Part shown: positions 24,856 to 43,000 of the stretch, piece by piece | Layout: each line of letters opens with the position of its first letter | How positions within the stretch are numbered: the stretch's first letter is position 1 | From: Candidatus Aenigmatarchaeota archaeon | GTDB taxonomy: Archaea; Aenigmatarchaeota; Aenigmatarchaeia; CG10238-14 | Assembly: GCA_044343545.1 (NCBI GenBank) | Contig: JAWBZR010000002.1 | Span: 3,522 to 67,521, forward strand | DNA length: 64,000 bases | Reading direction: 5' to 3' | Notes under the pieces: model-generated | What the model saw: the letters and a program-made list of their open reading frames with translations, nothing else | What the model was told of the DNA's origin: nothing | Databases searched by the model: none | Position numbers and translations under genes: made by a program

Positions 24856-25191
24856 ATGGATTTAAAGGGATTCTTTAAATTAGAAAAAAATAAAATAATA
24901 TTAACTTTAGTTATCCTTTTAATTTTTCCGTTACCATACTGGAATGGAATTCTTTGTGAAAGATGCGAAAAAGAACCTTGTCCCAAATGCCCTGATACTA
25001 ATTTTGGCCCAGCCTTGTTAGGTTGGTGGTTTACGTGGAAAGGTAGTTTCTATGGCCATTCAAAAATAATAGGAAACTATCATCTTGCACTAAATGTTTT
25101 AGAAAAAATACTACTTCAATTATTAATAATAGGTCTGCCAGTATCATACTTAATATCTTGTTTCATTTTTTGGTTTTTCAAAAATAGATAA
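24856..25191 (+). CDS. Small membrane protein with a CERCEKEPCPKCPD motif
   Basis: Two hydrophobic segments flanking a 4-Cys cluster. Confidence 0.3.
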   Translation: MDLKGFFKLEKNKIILTLVILLIFPLPYWNGILCERCEKEPCPKCPDTNFGPALLGWWFTWKGSFYGHSKIIGNYHLALNVLEKILLQLLIIGLPVSYLISCFIFWFFKNR

Positions 25192-26431: not shown

Positions 26432-26574
26432 TATAATACTATTAATGATGTTTGAGTTAATATTTTTGGCTCAAAGTGGTTTGCATCTGAAAATTTCACC
26501 CAAAAATAATTGGTTGAAAGACGCAACATTTTGAATAGAGCATAGAATATAATTTTATTTTACAAAATTATCAT

Positions 26575-27624
26575 TTGATGAAAATTGCAAAGATGCAAGA
26601 ACGATTGAATAACAGTTTAGTCAAGTGCACCGCATGTTCGCATTATTGTATAATAGCTCCAAATAATACAGGTTTGTGCGGTATAAGAAAAAATATTAAA
26701 GGCAAGCTTTACTTGCTCGTTTACGGTAAGGCAGCCGCTGTTAACATTGATCCCATAGAAAAAAAGCCTCTCTATCATTTCTTGCCTGGGAGCAAGATAT
26801 TTTCTTTTGGAACTTTGGGTTGTGATTTTGGATGTTTGTTTTGTCAAAACTATGACATTTCTCAGTTTCCAAGAGAGATAAGATTAAACGATGATAGAGA
26901 CGAGTTACTAAAAGATGCTATAGAAAAATGCGATAATCTTTCGCCGAAACAAATAGTTGACTATTGTTTAAAACATAATTTGCCTTCAATAGCATATACT
27001 TATAATGAGCCAGCAGTATTTTTCGAGTACGCATATGATACGGCAAAAATGGCAAAGAAGTTTGGTATAAAAAACGTTTTTGTCACCAATGGTTACGAGT
27101 CGAAAGAATCTTTTGATAAAATAAAAAAATACTTGGACGCAGCTAATGTAGACTTGAAATCATTTTCAGAAGAATTTTATTCGAACATTTGCAAGGCAAA
27201 ATTAGAACCTGTTCTGAGGACAATAGAAAGGATGCACGATGCTGGTATATGGATAGAAATTACGACTCTTGTAATTCCTGGAAAGAATGATTCTGAAAAG
27301 GAATTGAAAAACATAGCAGAATTTATAGCATCTATTAGCAAACACATACCTTGGCATGTCACGGCTTTTCATCCAGATTATAAAATGCTTGATGCACCCC
27401 CCACATCTTTATCTACCTTGATTAAAGCTTACAAAATAGGAAAGAGTTCAGGCTTAAAGTACGTATATATAGGTAATGTAAGAGCAGGAGATTATGAAAA
27501 CACTTTTTGTCCCGTTTGCGAAAATGTTTGTATTTCTAGAATCGGCTTTTTCAATATAAAAAACAATTTAATAAAAGGCAGTTGCCCAAAATGTGGTTAC
27601 AAGCTTGAGGGTGTTTGGGAATGA
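26575..27624 (+). CDS. amrS: AmmeMemoRadiSam system radical SAM enzyme (AmrS)
   Basis: Radical SAM CDFGCLFC (Cx3Cx2C) plus N-terminal Cys cluster CTACSHYC. 349 aa. Followed by Memo and AMMECR1 genes. Confidence 0.75.
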   Translation: MMKIAKMQERLNNSLVKCTACSHYCIIAPNNTGLCGIRKNIKGKLYLLVYGKAAAVNIDPIEKKPLYHFLPGSKIFSFGTLGCDFGCLFCQNYDISQFPREIRLNDDRDELLKDAIEKCDNLSPKQIVDYCLKHNLPSIAYTYNEPAVFFEYAYDTAKMAKKFGIKNVFVTNGYESKESFDKIKKYLDAANVDLKSFSEEFYSNICKAKLEPVLRTIERMHDAGIWIEITTLVIPGKNDSEKELKNIAEFIASISKHIPWHVTAFHPDYKMLDAPPTSLSTLIKAYKIGKSSGLKYVYIGNVRAGDYENTFCPVCENVCISRIGFFNIKNNLIKGSCPKCGYKLEGVWE

Positions 27625-28376
27625 TAAGAAAAGCGGTGGTAGCGGGAAGCTTTTATCCTAAAGACAAGGAAAAACTTGAAAAAATGATAGACCATTTTTT
27701 GTCGAATGTTGATGTCGAAGAGTTAAATGCAAAAGGTTTTGTCGTGCCTCATGCAGGCTATGTTTATTCTGGCCAAGTTGCTGCTTATGCCTATAAGATT
27801 ATAAAATCCTTAGGTTGTAAAAGAGTTATATTGTTAGGCCCTTCCCATTTTATTCCTTTTATTGGTTCATCTATTTCAACTGCAGATTTTTGGGAAACGC
27901 CTTTAGGTAAAGTAAAGGTAGAAAAAATTGTCACAAACTTTTTAGATTTTCCCGCAGCACATGCATATGAACATTCTATTGAGGTTCAACTACCTTTCTT
28001 GCAAAGGGTTCTAAAAGATTTTTCTATCGTTCCGATAAGTATAGGAGACGATGATTACAGGGATGTGGCTAATGAAATAGAAAGATTTGTAAATGAAGAA
28101 ACCATCATAATTGCTAGTTCTGACTTGAGTCACTATTATGATTATGAAACTGCCAAGAAGATCGATCAAAAAGCAAACGAAGCCATCCCAAAATTAGATA
28201 TAAAGGCCGCGGAAAATATAGAAGCTTGCGGAAAAATAGGTATACTTGCACTTATGTCTCTAGCAAAGAAAAAAGGCTGGAAAGGTATGAAACTTTTTTA
28301 TGCAAATTCTGGTGACGTGACCGGAGATAAATCAAGGGTCGTTGGTTATGGATGCTACGCGTTTTACGAAATATAA
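27615..28376 (+). CDS. amrB: MEMO1-family protein (AmmeMemoRadiSam system protein B)
   Basis: AVVAGSFYPKD...VVPHAGYVYSGQVAAYAY Memo signature. Confidence 0.75.
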   Translation: MGMIRKAVVAGSFYPKDKEKLEKMIDHFLSNVDVEELNAKGFVVPHAGYVYSGQVAAYAYKIIKSLGCKRVILLGPSHFIPFIGSSISTADFWETPLGKVKVEKIVTNFLDFPAAHAYEHSIEVQLPFLQRVLKDFSIVPISIGDDDYRDVANEIERFVNEETIIIASSDLSHYYDYETAKKIDQKANEAIPKLDIKAAENIEACGKIGILALMSLAKKKGWKGMKLFYANSGDVTGDKSRVVGYGCYAFYEI

Positions 28377-28923
28377 AGAATTTCTTTTAAGTTTGGCAAG
28401 GAAAAGCATAGAATATTTCTTGGAAAAAAGAGAGCTCATGCACGTGAACGAAGAAGAATTAGATAATGAGTTGAAAGAAAAAAGGCCAGTTTTTGTCACG
28501 TTAGAGAAGCACGGTATGTTGAGGGGATGCATAGGAAACTTGCAGCCAACAGAACCTCTTTATGCAGGCGTTATAAAAAATGCTGTGGCCGCAGCCTTTT
28601 ATGATGTAAGATTTTACCCTTTGAGTAGAGATGAATTGGATGAAGTTACGATAGAAATATCGATTTTAAGTGAGCCTAAAAAGATCGAATATAAGACAGT
28701 CAAAGAGCTATTAAGGAAGATAAGACGCTTCAAAGACGGCTTGATAATAAGATGTGGTCATAGGACTGCAACATTCTTGCCTCAAGTTTGGGAAAAACTT
28801 CCCGAAAAAGAGCTATTTTTGAGCGAGCTTTGCTTGAAAGCTGGGTTGAAAGCGGACGAATGGAAAAAAGGTAGTTTGGAAGTTTTCAAATACAATGTGA
28901 TTTGCTTCAAAGAAAAAGGTTAA
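28342..28923 (+). CDS. amrA: AMMECR1-domain protein (AmmeMemoRadiSam system protein A)
   Basis: ...[19 protein letters not shown]... LRGCIG motif. Confidence 0.8.
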
Positions 28924-29240: not shown

Positions 29241-29579
29241 CGCACCATCACTTTGAATTATAAACCAAACTTATATTTAAATAATTTTGTGTTTAGAATA
29301 AAGCTATAAAAGGAGGAGATATGGGGTTAATTTTATGGGTTTCAAACTAATTTATATTATTTTTTGATTCAGAAGGATTGGTAGGAAAGCAAAAATATTT
29401 GCAATCTTTTTTATCTCATAATACCATAGTTTTTTGGCATTTTTATAAAATCTAAGAGTTTACATTAGTGTGAGAAAAATTTAATGCGGGCATCCAGGTA
29501 GATCAGCTATTATATATCTACATTAGGCAAACCTGGATGTTTTTGGAAAAAATATACTGTTCCAACTGATTGGCCTTTT

Positions 29580-29723
29580 TTACAATAAAAGATTATTATT
29601 GCCTATCACAACTTGACAACCACCATCAACTTTGCTTAATAATTTTTCTGGTATTTCGTTTTTGTAAATACAAACAAATGGACAATATTCTCTTCCATTA
29701 TACTCTATAACTGCATAAAACAT
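29580..29723 (-). CDS. Possible small ORF (47 aa) in the tuf-rpsJ spacer: MFYAVIEYNGREYCPFVCIYKNEIPEKLLSKVDGGCQVVIGNNNLLL
   Basis: ATG at 29721-29723 and TAA at 29580-29582. Only 3 Cys. No homology recognised. Confidence 0.2.
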   Translation of the reverse strand: MFYAVIEYNGREYCPFVCIYKNEIPEKLLSKVDGGCQVVIGNNNLLL

Positions 29724-29745
29724 TAAATTAAAAAGAAATAAGGAT

Positions 29746-34720: not shown

Positions 34721-34992
34721 TTTTTATCGCTCTCTTTGATTGCTAGTATGCTTACTGAAAAAGGCTTTCCGCAGACAAGACCCAAGTTAACGTTATCCCC
34801 TTCAAACTCCTTTACTTCTACTTTGGCAATTTTTGCGTTGTGAAGGATTTCTTGTTTTTTATCTTCAGGTAAGTTATTTGCAATTACAACCATATCTATT
34901 TTACCACTCTTTAAATTTTTCATAACTCTATTATAACCTAAAATGACTTGTTTGCTTTTTACCTTGTCTTGGATGAGTTTTACTAAATTCAT
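34717..34992 (-). CDS. rpl30e: Ribosomal protein L30e
   Basis: 91 aa. Conserved position between rpoA'' and nusA. Confidence 0.8.
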
Positions 34993-36116
34993 TCTTCACC
35001 AACCTTGCCTATTAATTCGAACATACCAGTGCCTACCGGTACTTGTTGGTTGATCATGACATTATCAAATATTCCTTCAAATTCGTCCACTTCATTTCTT
35101 ACCGAAGCTCTAACAAGATGCTTTATCGTTTCTTCGAAACCTGCTCTTGAAAGAACCGCTGATTGCGTACCAGCAACACCATATCTTCCTACAGGCCTCA
35201 CTTCTCCAGTAAAACACATTATATCCGCAACCAATGTGATATGCCTTTCATCAACATTCAACCCCTGCTGTTTCAAGGTATTGTTTATTTCCCTTATGAG
35301 AATAGTTCTTGCAGCTTCTATACCTAAAATCTTTTCAACTTCGTGAAAATTGTTTGAGTATGTTCTTGTGAAATCCACTTCTTCAAGCTGAAATATTTTT
35401 TCTAAGTTTGATCCAAGTGTTTTTACAACCCAATCGTTTCCTTCTTTTACAACAACAGCATTTTTCACATTTTCCACACCACTTACATACGAGGCGAGAA
35501 CCTTTCTTTTCAATTTTTCAAGTTCTTTTATCGATATGTCTTGCTTGGGCTCTATGGTGATGGAGTTAGTGTGCGGTTTGACTTGATATCCTTTCAAAAG
35601 TTTTTGCAACCTTTCCACTATTTCATCCATTTCCTCTTTTGTAATCTTGCCAAAGTTTATTTTTATTTTTTTGTTGGTAAGGTCAGTTGTAACTTCAGTT
35701 GCAAAGTATTTTACCTTTTTTTCTTTGATTTTTTTCGAAAATTCCTCAGCCGCTTCTTTTGTATTGTGTTTTGGTTTTAGATATATAGTCATCATCGGAG
35801 TAGTAGGTTCTTTCCTCGCATCGAATATTTCTATTAATCTTGGCAAACCTAAAGTGACTTGAATGCCGGCCGAAGCTGCAAAGTGATATGTACGCATTGT
35901 CATTTGCGTCGCAGGTTCGGAAATCGATTGAGCCACAAGGATTCCTATAGCTTCTCCAGGTTGGAACATATTTTTGTAATATTCTCTCTTTACTTCTTCT
36001 ATCAATTTTATTTGCTGCTCTTCATTAAGCTTTCTTTGAGTGATGACCCTTTCCACTTCTTCCTTGAGATTGGCAGGAAAATCATCCAAATAATCTTCTA
36101 GCAATTTTTTCGACAT
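34989..36116 (-). CDS. rpoA2: DNA-directed RNA polymerase subunit A''
   Basis: 375 aa with ...[31 protein letters not shown]... trigger-loop region. Confidence 0.9.
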
Positions 36117-39100
36117 TTATATCACCCTTTTGTATTCTAGACGGGTCTAACCCGTCTTCAGCGGGAACAAATTGGATAATTTTTTTCATCGAATCTCTTA
36201 CAGTTCCATCATATTCTACCTTTAAATCTTTTAATGCACCTATCAATCTTCTTTCCAAGTAACCACTGTGTCTTGTCTTTAAAGATTTATCCATAAGACC
36301 TTCTCTGCTATTCATTGCATCGAAGAAAAATTCAAAAGGCGTTAATCCTGTTTTATAACCATGTCTAACAAAACCTTTGGATTCCAAACTTATATCATTT
36401 CTTTCAAAATGAGTGAATGTTCTCTTATAATAACCTATTCTTATTCTTTCTCCTCTCAAAGTTTCTTGACCTAAACAAGCGATGCATTGAACCATGTTAA
36501 CAAGACTGCCTCTTGCTCCGCTTTTGGCCATTATATATACAGAATTTTCTTGAATGTTTTTCGCAACTAAGTTTGTGATTTCATTAAGCGTGTCCGCTAA
36601 TTTTATTTTTATCAAAGTTTCCAGGGTTTCTCTCGGCGTCTTACCGACAACTCCTTTTATGTTACCTTTTTTGAATTCCTTAATCAATTCATTGACTTCA
36701 TCCTTTACTTTGTCAAGTTGATTGTTAATTTTTTCAATAATTTTTGGAGATACATCATAATCTGATATGGCTATGCTAAATCCATACCTTGTTAAAAATT
36801 CGAGCGAAAGTTTAGTGATATTGAATAAAAACTTCTTAGCATACTCACCTCCATAAACTTTTTCTATTTCATCAAGTATTTTGCCTTTGAAAGCACCAAC
36901 ACCACTTTCATCAATAAAACCTTCAAGCTCACCATTTTTTATGACAATTTTTGTATCGCCTTTAGTATATTCAAAGTTGAAATCTTTTGGCAAGAACAAG
37001 CTGAATATTTCTTGACCCGTAAATTCCTTCTTTTCCGGTACCTCTATTTCAAGATCACATGCTTTTACAAGCGATATCACATCCTTTCTTGGTAATTTCA
37101 TCTTTGTCGTCAAAATATAAAGCCCGGTTATATGATCATTTATAGCACCTATTATTACACTGCTAAACCTCGGACTTCTAAACTGTGTGGATACACGAGT
37201 GAGCAAGTTTGTTTCAACTTGAGCCTCTTTTGTTTGAGGTATGTGCAAATTCATTTCGTCTCCGTCAAAATCAGCATTATATGGTGGAGCAACCGTTAAA
37301 TTAAGTCTAAAAGTATTCCACGGCATAACTCTAACTCTATGTCCCATCATACTCATTCTATGCAAAGACGGCTGCCTGTTAAAGATGGACCAATCACCAT
37401 CTTCTATTTGTTTTTCAACAATATAGCCAGGTTCCAACTCTTTTATTATATCAGCCTTATTTTGCTCGGTAACTTTTTTTCTCCTTCCATCAGGTCTATT
37501 CACATAGTTTATTGTCGGCCATTCAGGATATCTTTCTATCATTTGTTTTATTTTTTCGATGTTTCTCTCGTTAACAACAACAGGTATTGTTAATTCTTTC
37601 GCTATTGATAGTGGAACGCCAACTTCATCTATATCCAAGAACGGGTCAGGACTTATGACAGTCCTTGCAGAATAGTTAACTCTTTTACCTATGAGGTTAC
37701 CTCTAAACCTACCTTCTTTCGTCTTCAATCTTTGTGCGAGTGTCTTTAATATTCTTCCAGATCTATGCCTTGCTGGAGGCACGCCACTAATTTCATTATT
37801 CATATAAGTTGCAACATGGTATTGCAACAATTCCCACAAATCTTGAATAATAAAGTCAGGAGCACCCAAGTCAATATTTTCTCTCAATCTCTTGTTTATT
37901 CTCACAATATCAACAAGTTTATGAGTTAGGTCATCTTCAGATCTTTCACCCGTTTCCAAGGTTATGGAAGGTCTCACCGTGACTGGTGGTATTGGTAAGA
38001 TAGTGAGCACGAAAACTTCTGGTCTCACACCTTTTATGCCAAGATATTGCAATTCTGAATCAGGTATTTTTTCCAATCTTTCTCTTATTTGCACAGGCGT
38101 TAAAACATCTTCATCTTCTTGATAAGTCGTTGGTTTAATATACTTTATTTTCTTTTGTTTTTCGTTGCAATAAGGACATGTAGATTTTACTAACGTTTTT
38201 AGCTTCTTTAATGATTTTTTCTTTTTGAGTTTTTCAGCATCTTCTGGTGTAATTAAAACCTTTCCACATTTTCTGCAAGTATATCTCAATATATTGTAAA
38301 TAAGTTTTGCATAGTTTACGTGGATTACGGGCTTTGTTAACTCTAAATGACCAAAATGACCTCTACATTCACCAACCGTGCCACCACACGTTCTACATCT
38401 TAAACCAGGATCTATAACGCCTAATCTAGGATCCATTAAACCTCCTTCTATCGGGTAACCTTCTTGATCATAAAGTTCTGTTTTGCTAATCTTGGATGCG
38501 GACATCTTCCTTATCATTTCAGGTGTCAATACGCTGAATGTTATTTTATCAATTATATTGAGATCTTCGTTGATTGTAAGTTTCGGATATATAACCATAC
38601 TTTTTAGCTCGTCCAATAGCAACTTGAAGGCGTAAGACATATCGACATCTATGATTTTTGAGCCTCCACACATGGGGCAGAATTTTTTGTTTTTCACCCT
38701 ATCGTTTATCGCTTCTATTCCACATTCTTTGCATATTGGTATTGAAATCTTGTCAGAATCGAACCTTTCTTTAAGCAAAAGGGAGGCGCCATGCGCAATT
38801 AAGCAGTCTTTTTCCATTTCCCCTAATCTCAATCCACCCATTTTTGATTTTCCTTCTGTTGGTTGTTTCGTCAACAATGCTACAGGACCTTTAGATCTAG
38901 CGTACATTTTATTTGAAACCAGGTGGTCAAGTTTTTGATAAAATATACTTCCTATGAGTATCTTGTTCATCAATTTTTGTCCGGTTCTACCGTCGAACAT
39001 AACTTCTTTACCATCATCGTCATAACCAAACTTCTTTAGCATTTCCCTTATTTGCTTTTCTTCTGGAGGATGAAATGGAGGGCTATATATCGGTTCGCCA

Positions 39101-40365
39101 GAAAGAGCGGCAACTTTAGCAGAAATAATTTCTAGAAGTTGACCAATAGTCATTCTTGATGGAATGCCGTGAGGATTAAACACCAAGTCAGGTACTATGC
39201 CTTCTTCGGTGAATGGCAAATCTTCTTCACCTATTATCAATCCAACTACGCCTTTTTGTCCGTGTCTACTCGCAAATTTGTCTCCCACTTCGGGAATCTT
39301 TAAATCTCTTATAACTACCTTCACAAGTTTGTTACCTTCAGAACTTTCTGTGATGAATACCCTATCAACTATCGCATTTTCGGAATGTTTCAATCTTACG
39401 GAAGTTTCTCTTATGTTCTCAAGGCTTGTTGTGAATTGATCTAATCCGCCTAAAAATCTCAAAGGTGAAGTTTTTCCTATCAAAACATCATCTTTCTTCA
39501 CATTAGTTTCCGGATTAACTATGCCATCTTCTGGTAAATGTTTATAAGCATCTTCACCTGCATATCCCCTTATTCCTGGTTGCGGTATTCCTATTACATC
39601 TTCTTGTCCACCTAAATATCTCTTTTCTTCAGCTTCATAAACCCTAAACATGTATGACCAGAACAAACCTCTTTCTATTGAGGATTTGTTTAGCACAATG
39701 GCATCTTCCATGTTGTATCCTAAAAACGACATGACAGCAATGGTAACGTTACATCCACCAGGATGCTCTTTATCGTTGATAATTTCGTTCATATGTGTCT
39801 TTACCAGCGGAACTTGAGGGTAAATCATTATGTTTGATTTCGTGTCAACTCTTAGAGGATAGTTTGAAGCATATATTCCTATGGATTGTCCTATCATCTT
39901 ACCTCCGAAATTAACCCTATCACCTCTGTTAAATTCTGCAAAAGGAACAAGAGAAGTTGCTATGCCAAATATGATAGTGGGATCTAGCTCCAAATGCGTG
40001 TGTTTGGGTGTAAGATCTTTTGGTGTTAACGCAACAAGAGCATTTTCTTCTTCTGTCGCATCCAAGTATTCTATAACACCTTGTTTTATTAGGTCACTCC
40101 ACTTAATTTTTCCTGCTTCCAAGGCTTTTATATGCTCTTCCGTTAATTTAGGTTTTCCCTTTTCTACAACTATTAATGGCCTTCTCGCCCTTCCAGGTTC
40201 AGTAGAAATCATGACTATATCAAAATGATCCAAGTAAGAGACGTTAAGCTGATTCGAAAGCAAACCTTTCCTTCTCTTTTCTCTCAACATTTCTACAAAT
40301 TTTTTTGCATCCTTTACCTTACCGACATATTTTCCGTCCAAAAACACATCAACCATTTTTCTCAA
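36082..40365 (-). CDS. rpoB1-rpoA1: DNA-directed RNA polymerase subunit B' (C-terminal half of split RpoB) fused in frame to subunit A' (1427-aa single ORF)
   Basis: Residues 1-600 carry RpoB C-terminal motifs ([15 protein letters not shown], zinc ribbon CKECG...CPMCG). Residues 603-1427 carry RpoA' motifs (clamp Zn CRTCGG...[22 protein letters not shown]). No stop or start codon at the junction ...[30 protein letters not shown]... at about 38540-38575. Confidence 0.85.
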
Positions 40366-41863
40366 CCTCTTTCAACACAGTATCCTCTATTATTTTGAAC
40401 TCTTTTTCAGTCACTCCAGAAGTAACTTGGGTCATTATCGCTAGATACTTTCTCAACCCAATCGTTGCACCTTCTGGTGTTTGTGACGGGTCAATCTTGC
40501 CCCATTGTGTTGGATGCAAAATTCTTGCTTCGAAATGTTCTTGAGTGGATGTAAGGGGTGACAATACATTTCTCATGTGTGAAAGTGTCTTTACAAAACT
40601 ACCTCTTTCCAACCTTTGTGACACGCCAGTCCTACCACCAACCCAAGAGCCTATTGCTATCGCTGAATTTACTTGGTTCGTTAAAACACTCGATTCGACG
40701 ATGGATTGCAAGGGCGGAAACCTCCCTCTTTTAGTAAGTTTTTGATAATTGTATGTTATTCTCGTTATAAGACCCCATTTACCAAGGAGTATCGACCTAA
40801 ACAATATTTCCAGCAGATCTCCGGACAATCTCAATCTTTTGTTAGAATAATGATCCAAATCATCTTTTGGTGTTTTTTTGAGATGATATTTTATAATCCT
40901 TTCACACGCTTTTATCAAGTAGAAAGCTTTTGTTAAACGATCCTTTTTTTCTTGACCTAAATGAGGAAGCAAATATTTGTCTAGTAACTTGTTGACCCTA
41001 TCTTGTCTATATTCTTTTTGAACAATTTTCAAGAAATCAGCAATCTCTTCCATAGCCTCCTTGCTTGTAGCTGCTTGTGTCTCAAACAAGTTTGGATAAA
41101 ACTCTTGCTGAACTTCAGGATCTTCGGATAAGCTCATAATTATGTCTCTATCCGTTTCTAAACCCAAAGCACGAATTAATATTATTATCGGCATTTTGTT
41201 AACATTCGCAAAACTTATTCTTATTATGCCGTCACCTTTCCTTTCTATTATGTGTCTTTGTATATATCCATCTTTTTCAGAATGAATTCTTGCCGTTTCC
41301 GTCACGTTGGGCGTGGATGACTTTTCTACTATTATTTTGTTTGGTGCTATTTCTTCTATTAACACAAGCACTCTTTCCGTTCCGTTTATGATAAAATAAC
41401 CGCCAGGGTCATCAGGGTCTTCGCCTGCCTTTATCAATTCGTCTCTATCCATTTTGGATAAAGGACAAATTTTTGATTTTAACATGATGGGAAGATCACC
41501 AAAGTTAACCATTACCGGTTCGCTTTCTATGTCGTTTAGGGTTGGTGTCATTTCAAGATACATTGGCGCAGAATACGTGAGGTTTCTTATCCTCGCTTCC
41601 AATGGCAATATAGGTCTTTCCGAGCCATCAGCTTCTTTTATCCAAGGGCCCCATCTATCATTTCCCAAAGGCTTGCCTATCTTAAATTTTCCTAATTTTA
41701 TTCTAAAATCTCCCAAGTCAGGAACTTCTGGTCTTATTTCTTTTATTTGTTTTATTATTGCAGGAATCCTGTTTTCAATGAAATCATTGTATGAATCTAT
41801 TTGAAATTTAACCAAACCTTCTTCCTTGACGAATGATTTTAACATCGTCATATATTCTTTCAT
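40349..41863 (-). CDS. rpoB2: DNA-directed RNA polymerase subunit B'' (N-terminal half of split RpoB)
   Basis: 504 aa with RpoB N-terminal lobe/protrusion patterns. Overlaps the rpoB' start by 17 nt. Confidence 0.9.
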   Translation of the reverse strand: MKEYMTMLKSFVKEEGLVKFQIDSYNDFIENRIPAIIKQIKEIRPEVPDLGDFRIKLGKFKIGKPLGNDRWGPWIKEADGSERPILPLEARIRNLTYSAPMYLEMTPTLNDIESEPVMVNFGDLPIMLKSKICPLSKMDRDELIKAGEDPDDPGGYFIINGTERVLVLIEEIAPNKIIVEKSSTPNVTETARIHSEKDGYIQRHIIERKGDGIIRISFANVNKMPIIILIRALGLETDRDIIMSLSEDPEVQQEFYPNLFETQAATSKEAMEEIADFLKIVQKEYRQDRVNKLLDKYLLPHLGQEKKDRLTKAFYLIKACERIIKYHLKKTPKDDLDHYSNKRLRLSGDLLEILFRSILLGKWGLITRITYNYQKLTKRGRFPPLQSIVESSVLTNQVNSAIAIGSWVGGRTGVSQRLERGSFVKTLSHMRNVLSPLTSTQEHFEARILHPTQWGKIDPSQTPEGATIGLRKYLAIMTQVTSGVTEKEFKIIEDTVLKEVEKNG

Positions 41864-42332: not shown

Positions 42333-42448
<116 letters not shown>

Positions 42449-42833: not shown

Positions 42834-42948
42834 ATCCCCCCGGCCGGATTTGAACCAGCAACCCTTCGGTTTCTGACGAGCATACGCCGGTGACGAATGC
42901 TTTTAGCAAACGTCTACAGCCGAATGCTCTACCGTTGAGCTACGGGGG
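42834..42948 (-). tRNA. tRNA-Tyr (anticodon GUA) with an intron of about 43 nt at the canonical position
   Basis: Reverse complement: CCCCCCG TA GCTC AACGGTA GAGC A TTCGG CTGTAG[A CGTTTGCTAAAAGCATTCGTCACCGGCGTATGCTCGTCAGAA]A CCGAA GGGTT GCTGG TTCAAAT CCGGC CGGGGGG A. The C1:G72 pair is the archaeal Tyr identity element. Confidence 0.8.
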
Positions 42949-43000
42949 GTCATAATTACAATAATCAATTTAATTAAAATATTTTAACCATATAATTTTT

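What the first reader, a model, noticed from the sequence alone, without database searches (positions are those of the whole stretch)
26575..28923. Complete AmmeMemoRadiSam triad (radical SAM AmrS, Memo-like AmrB, AMMECR1 AmrA)
The three genes are consecutive and overlapping (27615-27624 and 28342-28376). AmrS carries a CDFGCLFC radical-SAM cluster plus an additional N-terminal Cys motif (CTACSHYC). The second gene has the Memo PHAGY..SG signature. The third carries the AMMECR1 LRGCIG motif. The association is recognised in TIGRFAMs but the substrate and product of this presumed modification system remain unknown. A compact archaeal example next to the S10/EF-Tu operon is a good candidate for functional work.
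Basis: partly seen in the sequence, partly recalled or inferred. Interest (0 to 1): 0.5.

Follow-up and report, generated by a model that had tools for sequence, protein, structure and literature searches.

The report
Known AmmeMemoRadiSam operon in DPANN archaeon
The three overlapping genes are a textbook copy of the widespread but biochemically unsolved AmmeMemoRadiSam enzyme trio, already named as such in public annotation, so the locus is real but ordinary.

Summary
Observation confirmed. Window 26578-28923 (+) holds three translationally coupled genes. All three pass NCBI's curated models by wide margins: AmrS TIGR04337 354 bits (cut-off 220), AmrB TIGR04336 254 (26), AmrA TIGR04335 212 (99). 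The PFL-activase model scores only 61 against a cut-off of 232. Every family-defining residue is present. The identical AmrS protein is already in NCBI as [quoted passage not shown].

The gene association was published in 2007 and the function is still untested.

- Only about 10 of 85 amrS loci carry the compact triad.
- Elsewhere amrS abuts endonuclease III, archease-RtcB, SAM methyltransferases, or (once) queA-tgt-queH.
- All three domains occur fused in one polypeptide in Bacteroidales, and as a 730-aa version on two phage-like contigs.

Together these favour one self-contained enzyme unit acting on a nucleic-acid base, probably RNA (inferred, about 0.4).

No substrate peptide is conserved nearby. 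A glycyl-radical-like RVVGY in AmrB is probably structural. Adjacency to the S10 cluster is lineage synteny with convergent transcription.

Verdict: already known, low interest.

The parts
26578..27624 (+). amrS: AmmeMemoRadiSam system radical SAM enzyme, 348 aa
   Evidence: TIGR04337 353.6 bits against cut-off 220; Pfam Radical_SAM 81 bits. The identical protein is in NCBI under this name. AF2 model pLDDT 97.2; closest solved fold is PFL-AE.
26626..26679 (+). AmrS N-terminal Cys4 motif C17-x2-C20-x3-C24-x9-C34
   Evidence: All four Cys are invariant in 73 family members. The motif lies in a beta-rich extension that PFL-AE lacks. Metal or cluster identity is not determined.
26821..26844 (+). 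AmrS radical-SAM [4Fe-4S] motif C82-x3-C86-x2-C89 (CDFGCLFC)
   Evidence: Translation; invariant in the alignments.
27508..27594 (+). AmrS C-terminal CxxC...CxxC zinc-ribbon-like motif (C311, C314, C336, C339)
   Evidence: C311 and C314 are invariant; C336 and C339 are conserved in at least 90% of 73 sequences. The motif is missing from the 730-aa phage-type fusions but present in most ~830-aa Bacteroidales fusions.
27607..27613 (+). Shine-Dalgarno-like GAGGGTG, 7 nt upstream of the amrB ATG and inside the amrS 3' end
   Evidence: Read from the sequence. Function is inferred.
27621..28376 (+). amrB: Memo-like AmmeMemoRadiSam system protein B, 251 aa; its ATG overlaps the amrS TGA (ATGA)
   Evidence: TIGR04336 253.9 bits against cut-off 26; Pfam Memo 192 bits. 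An AmrB profile aligns end to end with human MEMO1, E = 3e-42. H44, H76, E117/H118, D168, H171 and C203 are invariant. AF2 pLDDT 96.5.
28334..28339 (+). Shine-Dalgarno-like AAGGGT, 8 nt upstream of the amrA ATG
   Evidence: Read from the sequence. Function is inferred.
28348..28923 (+). amrA: AMMECR1-family AmmeMemoRadiSam system protein A, 191 aa; overlaps amrB by 29 nt
   Evidence: TIGR04335 212 bits against cut-off 99; Pfam AMMECR1 173.7 bits. Homologous to the archaeal structures 1ZQ7, 1WSC and 1VAJ, all deposited as 'hypothetical protein'. LRGCIG (nt 28519-28536) and D86-x-R88-F89 (nt 28603-28614) are invariant.
26548..26561 (+). A/T-rich TATA-like box (ATAATTTTATTTTA) about 20-30 nt upstream of the amrS ATG; suggests a leaderless first gene
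   Evidence: Sequence only. Inference, not tested.

Best explanation
SHOWN: window 26578-28923 is a canonical amrS-amrB-amrA (AmmeMemoRadiSam) operon of a Candidatus Aenigmatarchaeota (DPANN) genome. The three genes are translationally coupled, and all catalytic or ligand residues are intact.

SHOWN: the three proteins form one functional unit. The same three domains occur fused in single polypeptides.

INFERRED mechanism:
- AmrS, a PFL-activase-fold radical SAM enzyme with two extra Cys4 modules, cleaves SAM to a 5'-deoxyadenosyl radical and activates a C-H bond of the substrate.
- AmrA (AMMECR1, double RAGNYA fold) holds the substrate in its cleft. It uses the invariant Cys of RGCIG, together with the D-x-R-F motif, as nucleophile or carrier.
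- AmrB (Memo, LigB-type fold with a complete His/His/Asp/His/Cys metal site) carries out a metal-dependent redox or ring-modifying step.
- The most likely substrate is a base in a nucleic acid or nucleotide, probably RNA (tRNA or rRNA). That would make the trio a housekeeping base-modification or repair module.

My confidence is about 0.97 for the identity of the locus and about 0.4 for the mechanism.
For: Identity:
- HMM scores are far above the curated cut-offs, with matching Pfam domains.
- The exact protein is already named in NCBI.
- Sister genomes keep the operon.

Intact enzymes: invariant residues are present in AmrS, AmrB and AmrA.

One unit:
- ATGA and 29-nt overlaps couple the genes.
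- More than 50 protein clusters carry Memo+AMMECR1+Radical_SAM in one chain, and AmrB-AmrA double fusions are numerous.

Nucleic-acid link (inference from context):
- In 85 amrS loci, an HhH-GPD glycosylase lies on the same strand directly against amrS in 6 loci from 4 phyla. Four of these pass the endonuclease III equivalog cut-off.
- Archease follows amrS in 5 loci, and RtcB follows in 4 of them.
- queA-tgt-queH precede the triad in a Saccharibacteria locus.
- An Ogt-like gene overlaps the amrS start in a Dojkabacteria locus.
- SAM methyltransferases abut amrS in at least 13 loci.
- A complete 730-aa fusion sits on two phage-like contigs next to a DNA methyltransferase and an endolysin-like gene. 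A 735-kb phage encodes AmrA.
- The system is retained in genome-reduced DPANN and CPR lineages.

Literature: Balaji & Aravind 2007 (PMC2034487) predicted an RNA base modification from the fold and the catalytic Cys. Burroughs & Aravind 2014 (PMC4075521) link archaeal AMMECR1 to NFACT and a Mut7-C RNase.
Against: - No substrate, product or activity has been measured for any member.
- The neighbourhood links are minority patterns: 4-11 of 85 loci each, with the loci not phylogenetically independent and chosen as the 80 best matches.
- They mix DNA-repair and RNA-repair genes, and nadA also recurs. The substrate class is therefore not pinned down.
- In this window the flanking genes are convergent or divergent and give no functional hint: YdjM, a BFN nuclease-domain protein, and rps10.
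- The closest characterised relatives of AmrS act on proteins, not nucleic acids.
- Eukaryotes keep Memo and AMMECR1 without AmrS, so the radical step is not obligatory for whatever those two do.
Confidence: 0.4

Rival explanations
1. Protein-directed chemistry. AmrS acts like its relatives the glycyl-radical-enzyme activases and installs a radical or a post-translational modification on AmrB or AmrA. Candidate sites are Gly242 of the invariant VVGY near the AmrB C-terminus and Cys61 of AmrA. The modified protein would be the real catalyst.
For: - The best characterised sequence and structure relatives of AmrS are PFL-AE and other GRE activases.
- AmrB carries RVVGY, which resembles the GRE fingerprint RVxG[FWY].
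- VVGY is invariant in 15 AmrB proteins and in 119 fusion proteins, with R preceding it in about 70%.
- Human MEMO1, from a lineage without AmrS, has Ser at the Gly position.
- Fusion of all three domains is compatible with an intramolecular target.
Against: - GRE-activase HMMs score 4- to 12-fold below their cut-offs.
- The Arg is not conserved, even in the closest relative, which has QVVGY.
- In the pLDDT 96.5 model, residues 240-249 form the last core beta-strand, not a hairpin tip as in GREs.
- Where GRE activases carry their N-terminal glycine-rich loop (recalled from memory), AmrS has the invariant DPIEKKP.
- The MEMO1 comparison is a single sequence.
Confidence: 0.15
2. Small-molecule or lipid chemistry. 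The trio modifies an isoprenoid lipid, cofactor or other metabolite.
For: - The Memo fold belongs to the LigB-type aromatic ring-opening dioxygenases, which act on small molecules (PMC7694686).
- nadA recurs near amrS in 4 loci, once overlapping it.
- Many radical SAM structural neighbours (HydE, BioB, LipA, viperin) act on small molecules.
Against: - The system is prominent in DPANN and CPR organisms. These are generally held to lack de novo lipid and most cofactor synthesis (general knowledge, not tested here).
- The system is carried by phage-like contigs.
- No lipid or cofactor pathway gene recurs next to amrS apart from nadA.
- The AmrA fold family is mostly nucleic-acid or nucleotide binding (PMC2034487).
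Confidence: 0.2
3. The radical SAM gene is an ordinary pyruvate formate-lyase (or other glycyl radical enzyme) activase that merely sits next to Memo and AMMECR1 genes.
For: JGI labels many homologues 'pyruvate formate lyase activating enzyme'. PFL-AE is the closest solved fold.
Against: - TIGR02493 scores 61.4 against 231.75, TIGR02494 51.7 against 174.35 and NrdG 29.8 against 131.15, whereas TIGR04337 scores 353.6 against 220.
- The three domains occur fused in one chain.
- The operon is conserved in sister genomes.
- No PFL-like gene is present in the 64-kb window.
Confidence: 0.01

Closest known systems
AmmeMemoRadiSam system (NCBIfam/TIGRFAMs TIGR04337 AmrS, TIGR04336 AmrB, TIGR04335 AmrA). 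The gene association was first described by Balaji & Aravind 2007.
   Same: All three components are present, above the curated cut-offs and with every invariant residue. They are adjacent and translationally coupled. The proteins already carry this name in NCBI.
   Different: Nothing of substance differs. The compact S-B-A operon is a minority arrangement, seen in about 10 of 85 surveyed amrS loci. Here it lies convergent to rps10, a synteny restricted to Aenigmatarchaeota.
Pyruvate formate-lyase activating enzyme (PflA; PDB 3C8F, 3CB8, 8FO0)
   Same: Same partial TIM-barrel radical SAM core and CX3CX2C cluster. It is the best structural match (TM 0.80 over the PFL-AE length, E = 6e-14).
   Different: Only 16-17% identity, and the HMM score is 4-fold below cut-off. 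AmrS has about 100 extra residues (N- and C-terminal Cys4 modules) and an invariant DPIEKKP segment. No glycyl radical enzyme partner is present.
Human MEMO1 (PDB 3BCZ, 7KQ8) and eukaryotic or archaeal AMMECR1 (PDB 1VAJ, 1WSC, 1ZQ7)
   Same: AmrB aligns end to end with MEMO1 and keeps its His/His/Asp/His/Cys site. AmrA is an ordinary AMMECR1 with RGCIG and DxRF.
   Different: Eukaryotes have no AmrS. MEMO1 has Ser where prokaryotic AmrB has the invariant Gly242. The eukaryotic proteins are studied as signalling or metal-binding factors, and the archaeal structures are deposited as hypothetical proteins.
ArcS-RaSEA archaeosine synthase complex (radical SAM enzyme bound to an RNA-recognising partner; PMC11298593)
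   Same: This is a working analogy only: an archaeal radical SAM enzyme that functions solely in complex with a partner protein to remodel a tRNA base.
   Different: Homology was not tested here. No NCBIfam model of that name appeared among the AmrS hits. The partners (ArcS against Memo/AMMECR1) are unrelated.

Membership tests
AmmeMemoRadiSam system | Radical SAM component scores above the TIGR04337 cut-off | tested here: met
   353.6 bits against 220, E = 9e-106, full-length match.
AmmeMemoRadiSam system | CX3CX2C radical SAM cluster motif plus the family-invariant N-terminal Cys4 and C-terminal CxxC...CxxC | tested here: met
   C82/C86/C89, C17/C20/C24/C34 and C311/C314/C336/C339 are all present. 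They are invariant or at least 90% conserved in 73 members.
AmmeMemoRadiSam system | Memo-like protein B above the TIGR04336 cut-off, with intact metal-site residues | tested here: met
   253.9 bits against 26; Pfam Memo 192 against 27. H44, H76, D168, H171 and C203 align to the MEMO1 motifs.
AmmeMemoRadiSam system | AMMECR1-family protein A above the TIGR04335 cut-off, with the RGChG and DxRa motifs | tested here: met
   212 bits against 99. LRGCIG and DVRF are present and invariant in 13 homologues.
AmmeMemoRadiSam system | The three genes co-occur in one genome, usually linked | tested here: met
   The genes are consecutive and overlapping. The same operon is present in four sister assemblies, and single-chain fusions exist elsewhere.
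AmmeMemoRadiSam system | A defined biochemical reaction | not testable with these tools
   None is known for any member.
Glycyl-radical-enzyme activases (PflA/NrdG/PFLE_PFLC) | Score above the curated HMM cut-off | tested here: not met
   TIGR02493 61.4 against 231.75; TIGR02494 51.7 against 174.35; TIGR02495 29.8 against 131.15; YjjW 63.9 against 250.2.
Glycyl-radical-enzyme activases (PflA/NrdG/PFLE_PFLC) | A cognate glycyl radical enzyme with an RVxG[FWY] loop | tested here: inconclusive
   No PFL- or NrdD-like gene is present in the window. AmrB has RVVGY, but the Arg is variable and the motif lies in a core beta-strand. The rest of the genome was not seen.

The most novel reading that the evidence does not exclude
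AmmeMemoRadiSam is a self-contained, radical-SAM-driven nucleic-acid base modification or repair module, most likely acting on tRNA or rRNA. It is portable enough to work as a single 730-aa phage-borne polypeptide. It is repeatedly placed in operons with endonuclease III, archease-RtcB and queuosine genes, and it is retained by ultra-small DPANN and CPR cells because it services their translation apparatus. Solving it would also give the first biochemical function for human AMMECR1 and MEMO1.
Probability: 0.3. Interest if true: 0.7.

Novelty: already known. Interest (0 to 1): 0.2.

Why it matters
The locus itself adds nothing new. It is one more correctly annotated copy of a system found in hundreds of anaerobic bacteria and archaea.

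The underlying question does matter. AMMECR1 ranks among the most widespread uncharacterised archaeal proteins, present in 429 of 524 genomes (PMC6393860). Both AMMECR1 and MEMO1 have human disease links without an agreed enzymatic function.

- the three domains occur fused in one chain, including on phage-like contigs;
- amrS repeatedly neighbours nth, archease-rtcB, tRNA-queuosine genes and methyltransferases;
- the system is retained in DPANN and CPR lineages.

They also suggest better experimental starting points than this MAG, namely the single-chain Bacteroidales or phage fusions.

Tried and rejected
1. PFL or GRE activase identity: rejected on HMM scores.

2. Conserved small substrate peptide next to the operon: none found.
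- The 111-aa Cys-rich ORF 24856-25191 has no Pfam hit and is not syntenic in relatives, where a PolB gene sits instead.
- No extra gene family recurs across the triad loci.

3. S10/EF-1alpha adjacency as a functional link: rejected.
- Transcription is convergent.
- Relatives have an EamA gene in between.
- The adjacency is absent outside Aenigmatarchaeota.

4. AmrB as a glycyl radical protein via RVVGY: considered and downgraded. The Arg is variable and the motif lies in a core beta-strand.

5. Divergent AmrA or AmrB missed in the "solo amrS" loci: re-checked with HMMs and the counts are the same, 14 and 12 of 85.

6. The 194-aa gene after amrS in Woesearchaeota locus L006 as a cryptic AMMECR1: no Pfam hit.

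7. Literature on a solved function: ten searches found none. Burroughs et al. 2019 (JBC) is not held, so its content is cited from memory only.

8. Solved structure of an AmrS-family member: none. Only PFL-AE appears, at E = 1e-9.

9. Coordinates of the AF2 models are not exposed, so Cys-Cys distances in the two Cys4 modules could not be measured.
Full report
OBSERVATION. Three same-strand ORFs occupy window 26575-28923 exactly as described.

Translation confirms every quoted motif:
- AmrS CTACSHYC...C (aa 17-34) and CDFGCLFC (aa 82-89);
- AmrB PHAGY (aa 43-47);
- AmrA LRGCIG (aa 58-63).

The probable starts are ATG 26578, ATG 27621 and ATG 28348, which are also the starts used by the public gene calls (348, 251 and 191 aa).

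With these starts, amrS and amrB overlap in ATGA (27621-27624) and amrB and amrA overlap by 29 nt (28348-28376). Shine-Dalgarno-like GAGGGTG and AAGGGT lie 7-8 nt upstream of the two internal starts. An A/T-rich TATA-like box lies about 20-30 nt upstream of the amrS ATG. This fits an archaeal operon with a leaderless first gene and coupled downstream genes, which is an inference.

WHAT IT IS. NCBIfam gives the following scores:
- TIGR04337 (AmmeMemoSam_rS): 353.6 bits against a cut-off of 220;
- TIGR04336 (protein B): 253.9 bits against 26;
- TIGR04335 (protein A): 212 bits against 99.

Pfam gives Radical_SAM, Memo and AMMECR1.

The identical AmrS sequence is already in NCBI as [quoted passage not shown] (P0001). 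The window matches NCBI assembly GCA_044343435.1 and Logan run SRR21619491. The source is therefore a DPANN archaeon.

Four sister Aenigmatarchaeota assemblies (AmrS 72-83% identical) keep amrS-amrB-amrA in the same place, next to rps10.

ANATOMY.

AmrS:
- The radical SAM triad C82/C86/C89, an N-terminal Cys4 (C17/C20/C24/C34), C205, and C311/C314 of a C-terminal CxxC...CxxC are invariant in 73 homologues. C336/C339 are conserved in at least 90%.
- The "additional Cys motif" is therefore a family hallmark, not a local oddity.
- No family member has a solved structure.
- An AF2 model (pLDDT 97.2) matches PFL-AE best (TM 0.80 of the PFL-AE length, 16-17% identity).
- That match covers only the core. 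The beta-rich stretches at about residues 1-60 and 300-348, which carry the Cys4 motifs, are extra.

AmrB:
- A profile of 15 AmrB proteins aligns end to end with human MEMO1 (E = 3e-42).
- H44, H76, E117/H118, D168, H171 and C203 are invariant. They fall in the PHAGY, GPSH, SSDxxH and CG motifs shared with MEMO1.

AmrA:
- It matches the archaeal AMMECR1 structures 1ZQ7, 1WSC and 1VAJ, all deposited as hypothetical proteins.
- It keeps the RGCIG Cys and the D-x-R-F motif that Balaji & Aravind proposed as the active site (PMC2034487).

All three proteins therefore look catalytically competent.

CONTEXT IN THE WINDOW.
- The operon ends in a TTAA that holds the stop codons of both amrA and the convergent rps10 (28920-28923).
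- Downstream lies the conserved cluster rps10 - EF-1alpha - EF-2 - S7 - S12 - NusA - L7Ae - RNA polymerase.
- Upstream, divergently transcribed, are a BFN nuclease-domain gene and a YdjM-like gene.
- In relatives a small EamA gene separates amrA from rps10. Outside Aenigmatarchaeota the adjacency disappears.
- The adjacency is therefore lineage synteny, not evidence of function.
- No small conserved ORF that could be a substrate peptide accompanies the operon.

CONTEXT ELSEWHERE. A scan of one genome per species found more than 600 amrS loci, of which the best 80 were kept. These were pooled with five loci from the protein look-ups. By BLAST and by HMM:
- amrB lies near amrS in 14 of 85 loci;
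- amrA lies near amrS in 12 of 85 loci;
- the compact triad occurs in about 10 loci, mostly DPANN archaea, CPR bacteria and a Fibrobacterales MAG.

Most bacterial amrS genes stand without amrA or amrB within 6 kb. Their recurrent same-strand neighbours are listed below.
- HhH-GPD glycosylase: directly abuts amrS in 6 loci from 4 phyla, and lies 925 bp away in a Woesearchaeota locus. Four of these pass the endonuclease III equivalog cut-off.
- Archease: follows amrS in 5 loci, with RtcB after it in 4.
- Class I SAM methyltransferase: directly upstream in 11 Desulfobacterota loci, and next to amrS or the triad in two archaeal loci.
- Ogt-like gene: overlaps the amrS start in a Dojkabacteria locus.
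- queA-tgt-queH: directly precede the triad in a Saccharibacteria locus.
- nadA: recurs in 4 loci.

Of the 8 HhH-GPD genes found within 6 kb of amrS, 6 are immediate same-strand neighbours. That is far more than random placement inside the flanks would give. The loci are not phylogenetically independent, so I treat all of this as suggestive only.

FUSIONS AND PHAGES. Five IMG/VR contigs encode AmrS relatives.
- On two of them (L091, L092; 27-28% GC) a single 730-733-aa protein carries Memo + AMMECR1 + Radical_SAM.
- Their neighbours hit PHROG endolysin, DNA methyltransferase and phage-only families.
- A 735-kb "uncultured phage" record encodes a stand-alone AmrA.
- A database search with the fusion found more than 50 clusters of triple fusions (730-852 aa). 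Many come from Bacteroidales MAGs and are already labelled AmmeMemoRadiSam. There are also many ~500-aa AmrB-AmrA fusions.
- Most long fusions keep the AmrS C-terminal zinc ribbon. The 730-aa type lacks it.

This is Rosetta-stone evidence that the three proteins act as one unit and need no dedicated partner encoded alongside.

HOW IT MOST LIKELY WORKS.

Shown:
- three intact enzymes;
- coupled expression;
- function as one unit.

Inferred:
- AmrS generates a 5'-deoxyadenosyl radical and activates a C-H bond.
- AmrA binds the substrate in its cleft and uses Cys61 as nucleophile or carrier.
- AmrB performs a metal-dependent redox or ring-modifying step.

I favour a nucleic-acid base, probably in RNA, as the substrate (about 0.4). 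The reasons are:
- the RAGNYA fold of AmrA and earlier predictions (PMC2034487, PMC4075521);
- the DNA- and RNA-repair, queuosine and methyltransferase neighbours;
- carriage by phages;
- retention in genome-reduced DPANN and CPR lineages.

RIVALS.

(a) Protein-directed radical or post-translational chemistry (0.15).
- For: AmrS's nearest characterised relatives activate proteins. AmrB carries an invariant VVGY, usually preceded by Arg, which resembles the glycyl-radical fingerprint. Human MEMO1, from a lineage without AmrS, has Ser at that Gly.
- Against: the Arg is not conserved even in the closest relative, the motif sits in the last core beta-strand of a pLDDT 96.5 model, and the activase HMMs fail.

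(b) Small-molecule or isoprenoid chemistry (0.2). This is compatible with the LigB-type fold and the nadA links. It sits poorly with the DPANN, CPR and phage distribution.

(c) Plain PFL activase (0.01). Refuted.

KNOWN OR NEW.
- The AMMECR1 / radical SAM / Memo-type dioxygenase neighbourhood was published in 2007 (PMC2034487).
- TIGRFAMs named the system, and PGAP already labels this very protein.
- A 2019 review lists AMMECR1 among top-priority uncharacterised archaeal families, present in 429 of 524 genomes (PMC6393860).
- A 2026 preprint still calls it uncharacterised.

The locus is therefore already known as a kind and as an instance. Its function remains open, but this copy, from an uncultivated MAG, does not make the question more testable than cultivated carriers or the single-chain fusions would.

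VERDICT. Observation confirmed. Interpretation supported. Novelty: already known. Interest 0.2.

The most useful by-products are the neighbourhood and fusion evidence bearing on the substrate class, and an unrelated RNA polymerase B-A' gene fusion elsewhere in the window, recorded under things noticed in passing.

Noticed in passing
window 36082-40365 (-), with 40349-41863 (-) and 34989-36116 (-): A single 1424/1427-aa ORF joins the C-terminal half of RNA polymerase subunit B (Pfam Rpb2_4 to Rpb2_7) to subunit A' (Rpb1_1 to Rpb1_5). It is preceded by a separate 504-aa N-terminal B fragment and followed by A''. More than 100 protein clusters share this architecture (53-88% identity, almost all from Aenigmatarchaeota MAGs), and ~1911-aa versions carry full-length B fused to A'. 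The fusion is therefore a lineage trait, not an assembly error. Records label it only as "subunit A'". A literature search found no description of it.
   Followed up: partly
L091 4621-6813 (+) and L092 4654-6855 (+), IMG/VR contigs: A single 730-733-aa polypeptide carries Memo + AMMECR1 + radical SAM (AmrB-AmrA-AmrS) on two low-GC phage-like contigs. It lies next to genes hitting PHROG endolysin and DNA methyltransferase families. Related ~830-aa triple fusions are common in Bacteroidales MAGs.
   Followed up: partly
L023, L041, L046, L052, L051, L084, L006; L030, L032, L048; L011 (coordinates): In loci that lack amrA and amrB, amrS is repeatedly in an operon-like arrangement with endonuclease III or HhH-GPD glycosylases and with archease-RtcB. 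In a Saccharibacteria genome, queA-tgt-queH directly precede the triad. A Methyltransf_11 gene precedes amrS in 11 Desulfobacterota loci.
   Followed up: partly
window 28338-28349 (AmrB aa 240-243): VVGY near the AmrB C-terminus is invariant in 15 stand-alone and 119 fused AmrB sequences. It is usually preceded by Arg, giving a glycyl-radical-like RVVGY. Human MEMO1 has Ser at the Gly position. The AF2 model places the motif in the last core beta-strand.
   Followed up: yes
window 29241-29745 (-), between rps10 and EF-1alpha: This 505-nt gap contains a 47-aa ORF (29580-29723). It is homologous to the first part of a 72-aa ORF at the same position in relative L005. The remainder of the homologue continues in another reading frame, so the window copy is frameshifted (pseudogene, sequencing error or recoding). 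Relative L002 has an unrelated 76-aa membrane ORF there.
   Followed up: partly
window 28920-28923: The convergent genes amrA and rps10 share a palindromic TTAA that contains both stop codons, so their 3' ends overlap by 4 nt. Relatives have a 140-aa EamA gene between the two.
   Followed up: no
L094 5827-6519 and 9032-9766 (548-kb IMG/VR contig): An AmrS-like gene is split into two pieces about 2.5 kb apart. The second piece resumes after '...GFIVHNC', which looks like an intein C-terminal junction. The intervening sequence was not analysed.
   Followed up: no
window 42835-42949 (-) and 42334-42448 (-): Rfam reports a full-model tRNA match spanning 115 nt that ARAGORN does not report, which suggests an intron-containing tRNA. 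It lies next to a stand-alone 5S rRNA gene.
   Followed up: no
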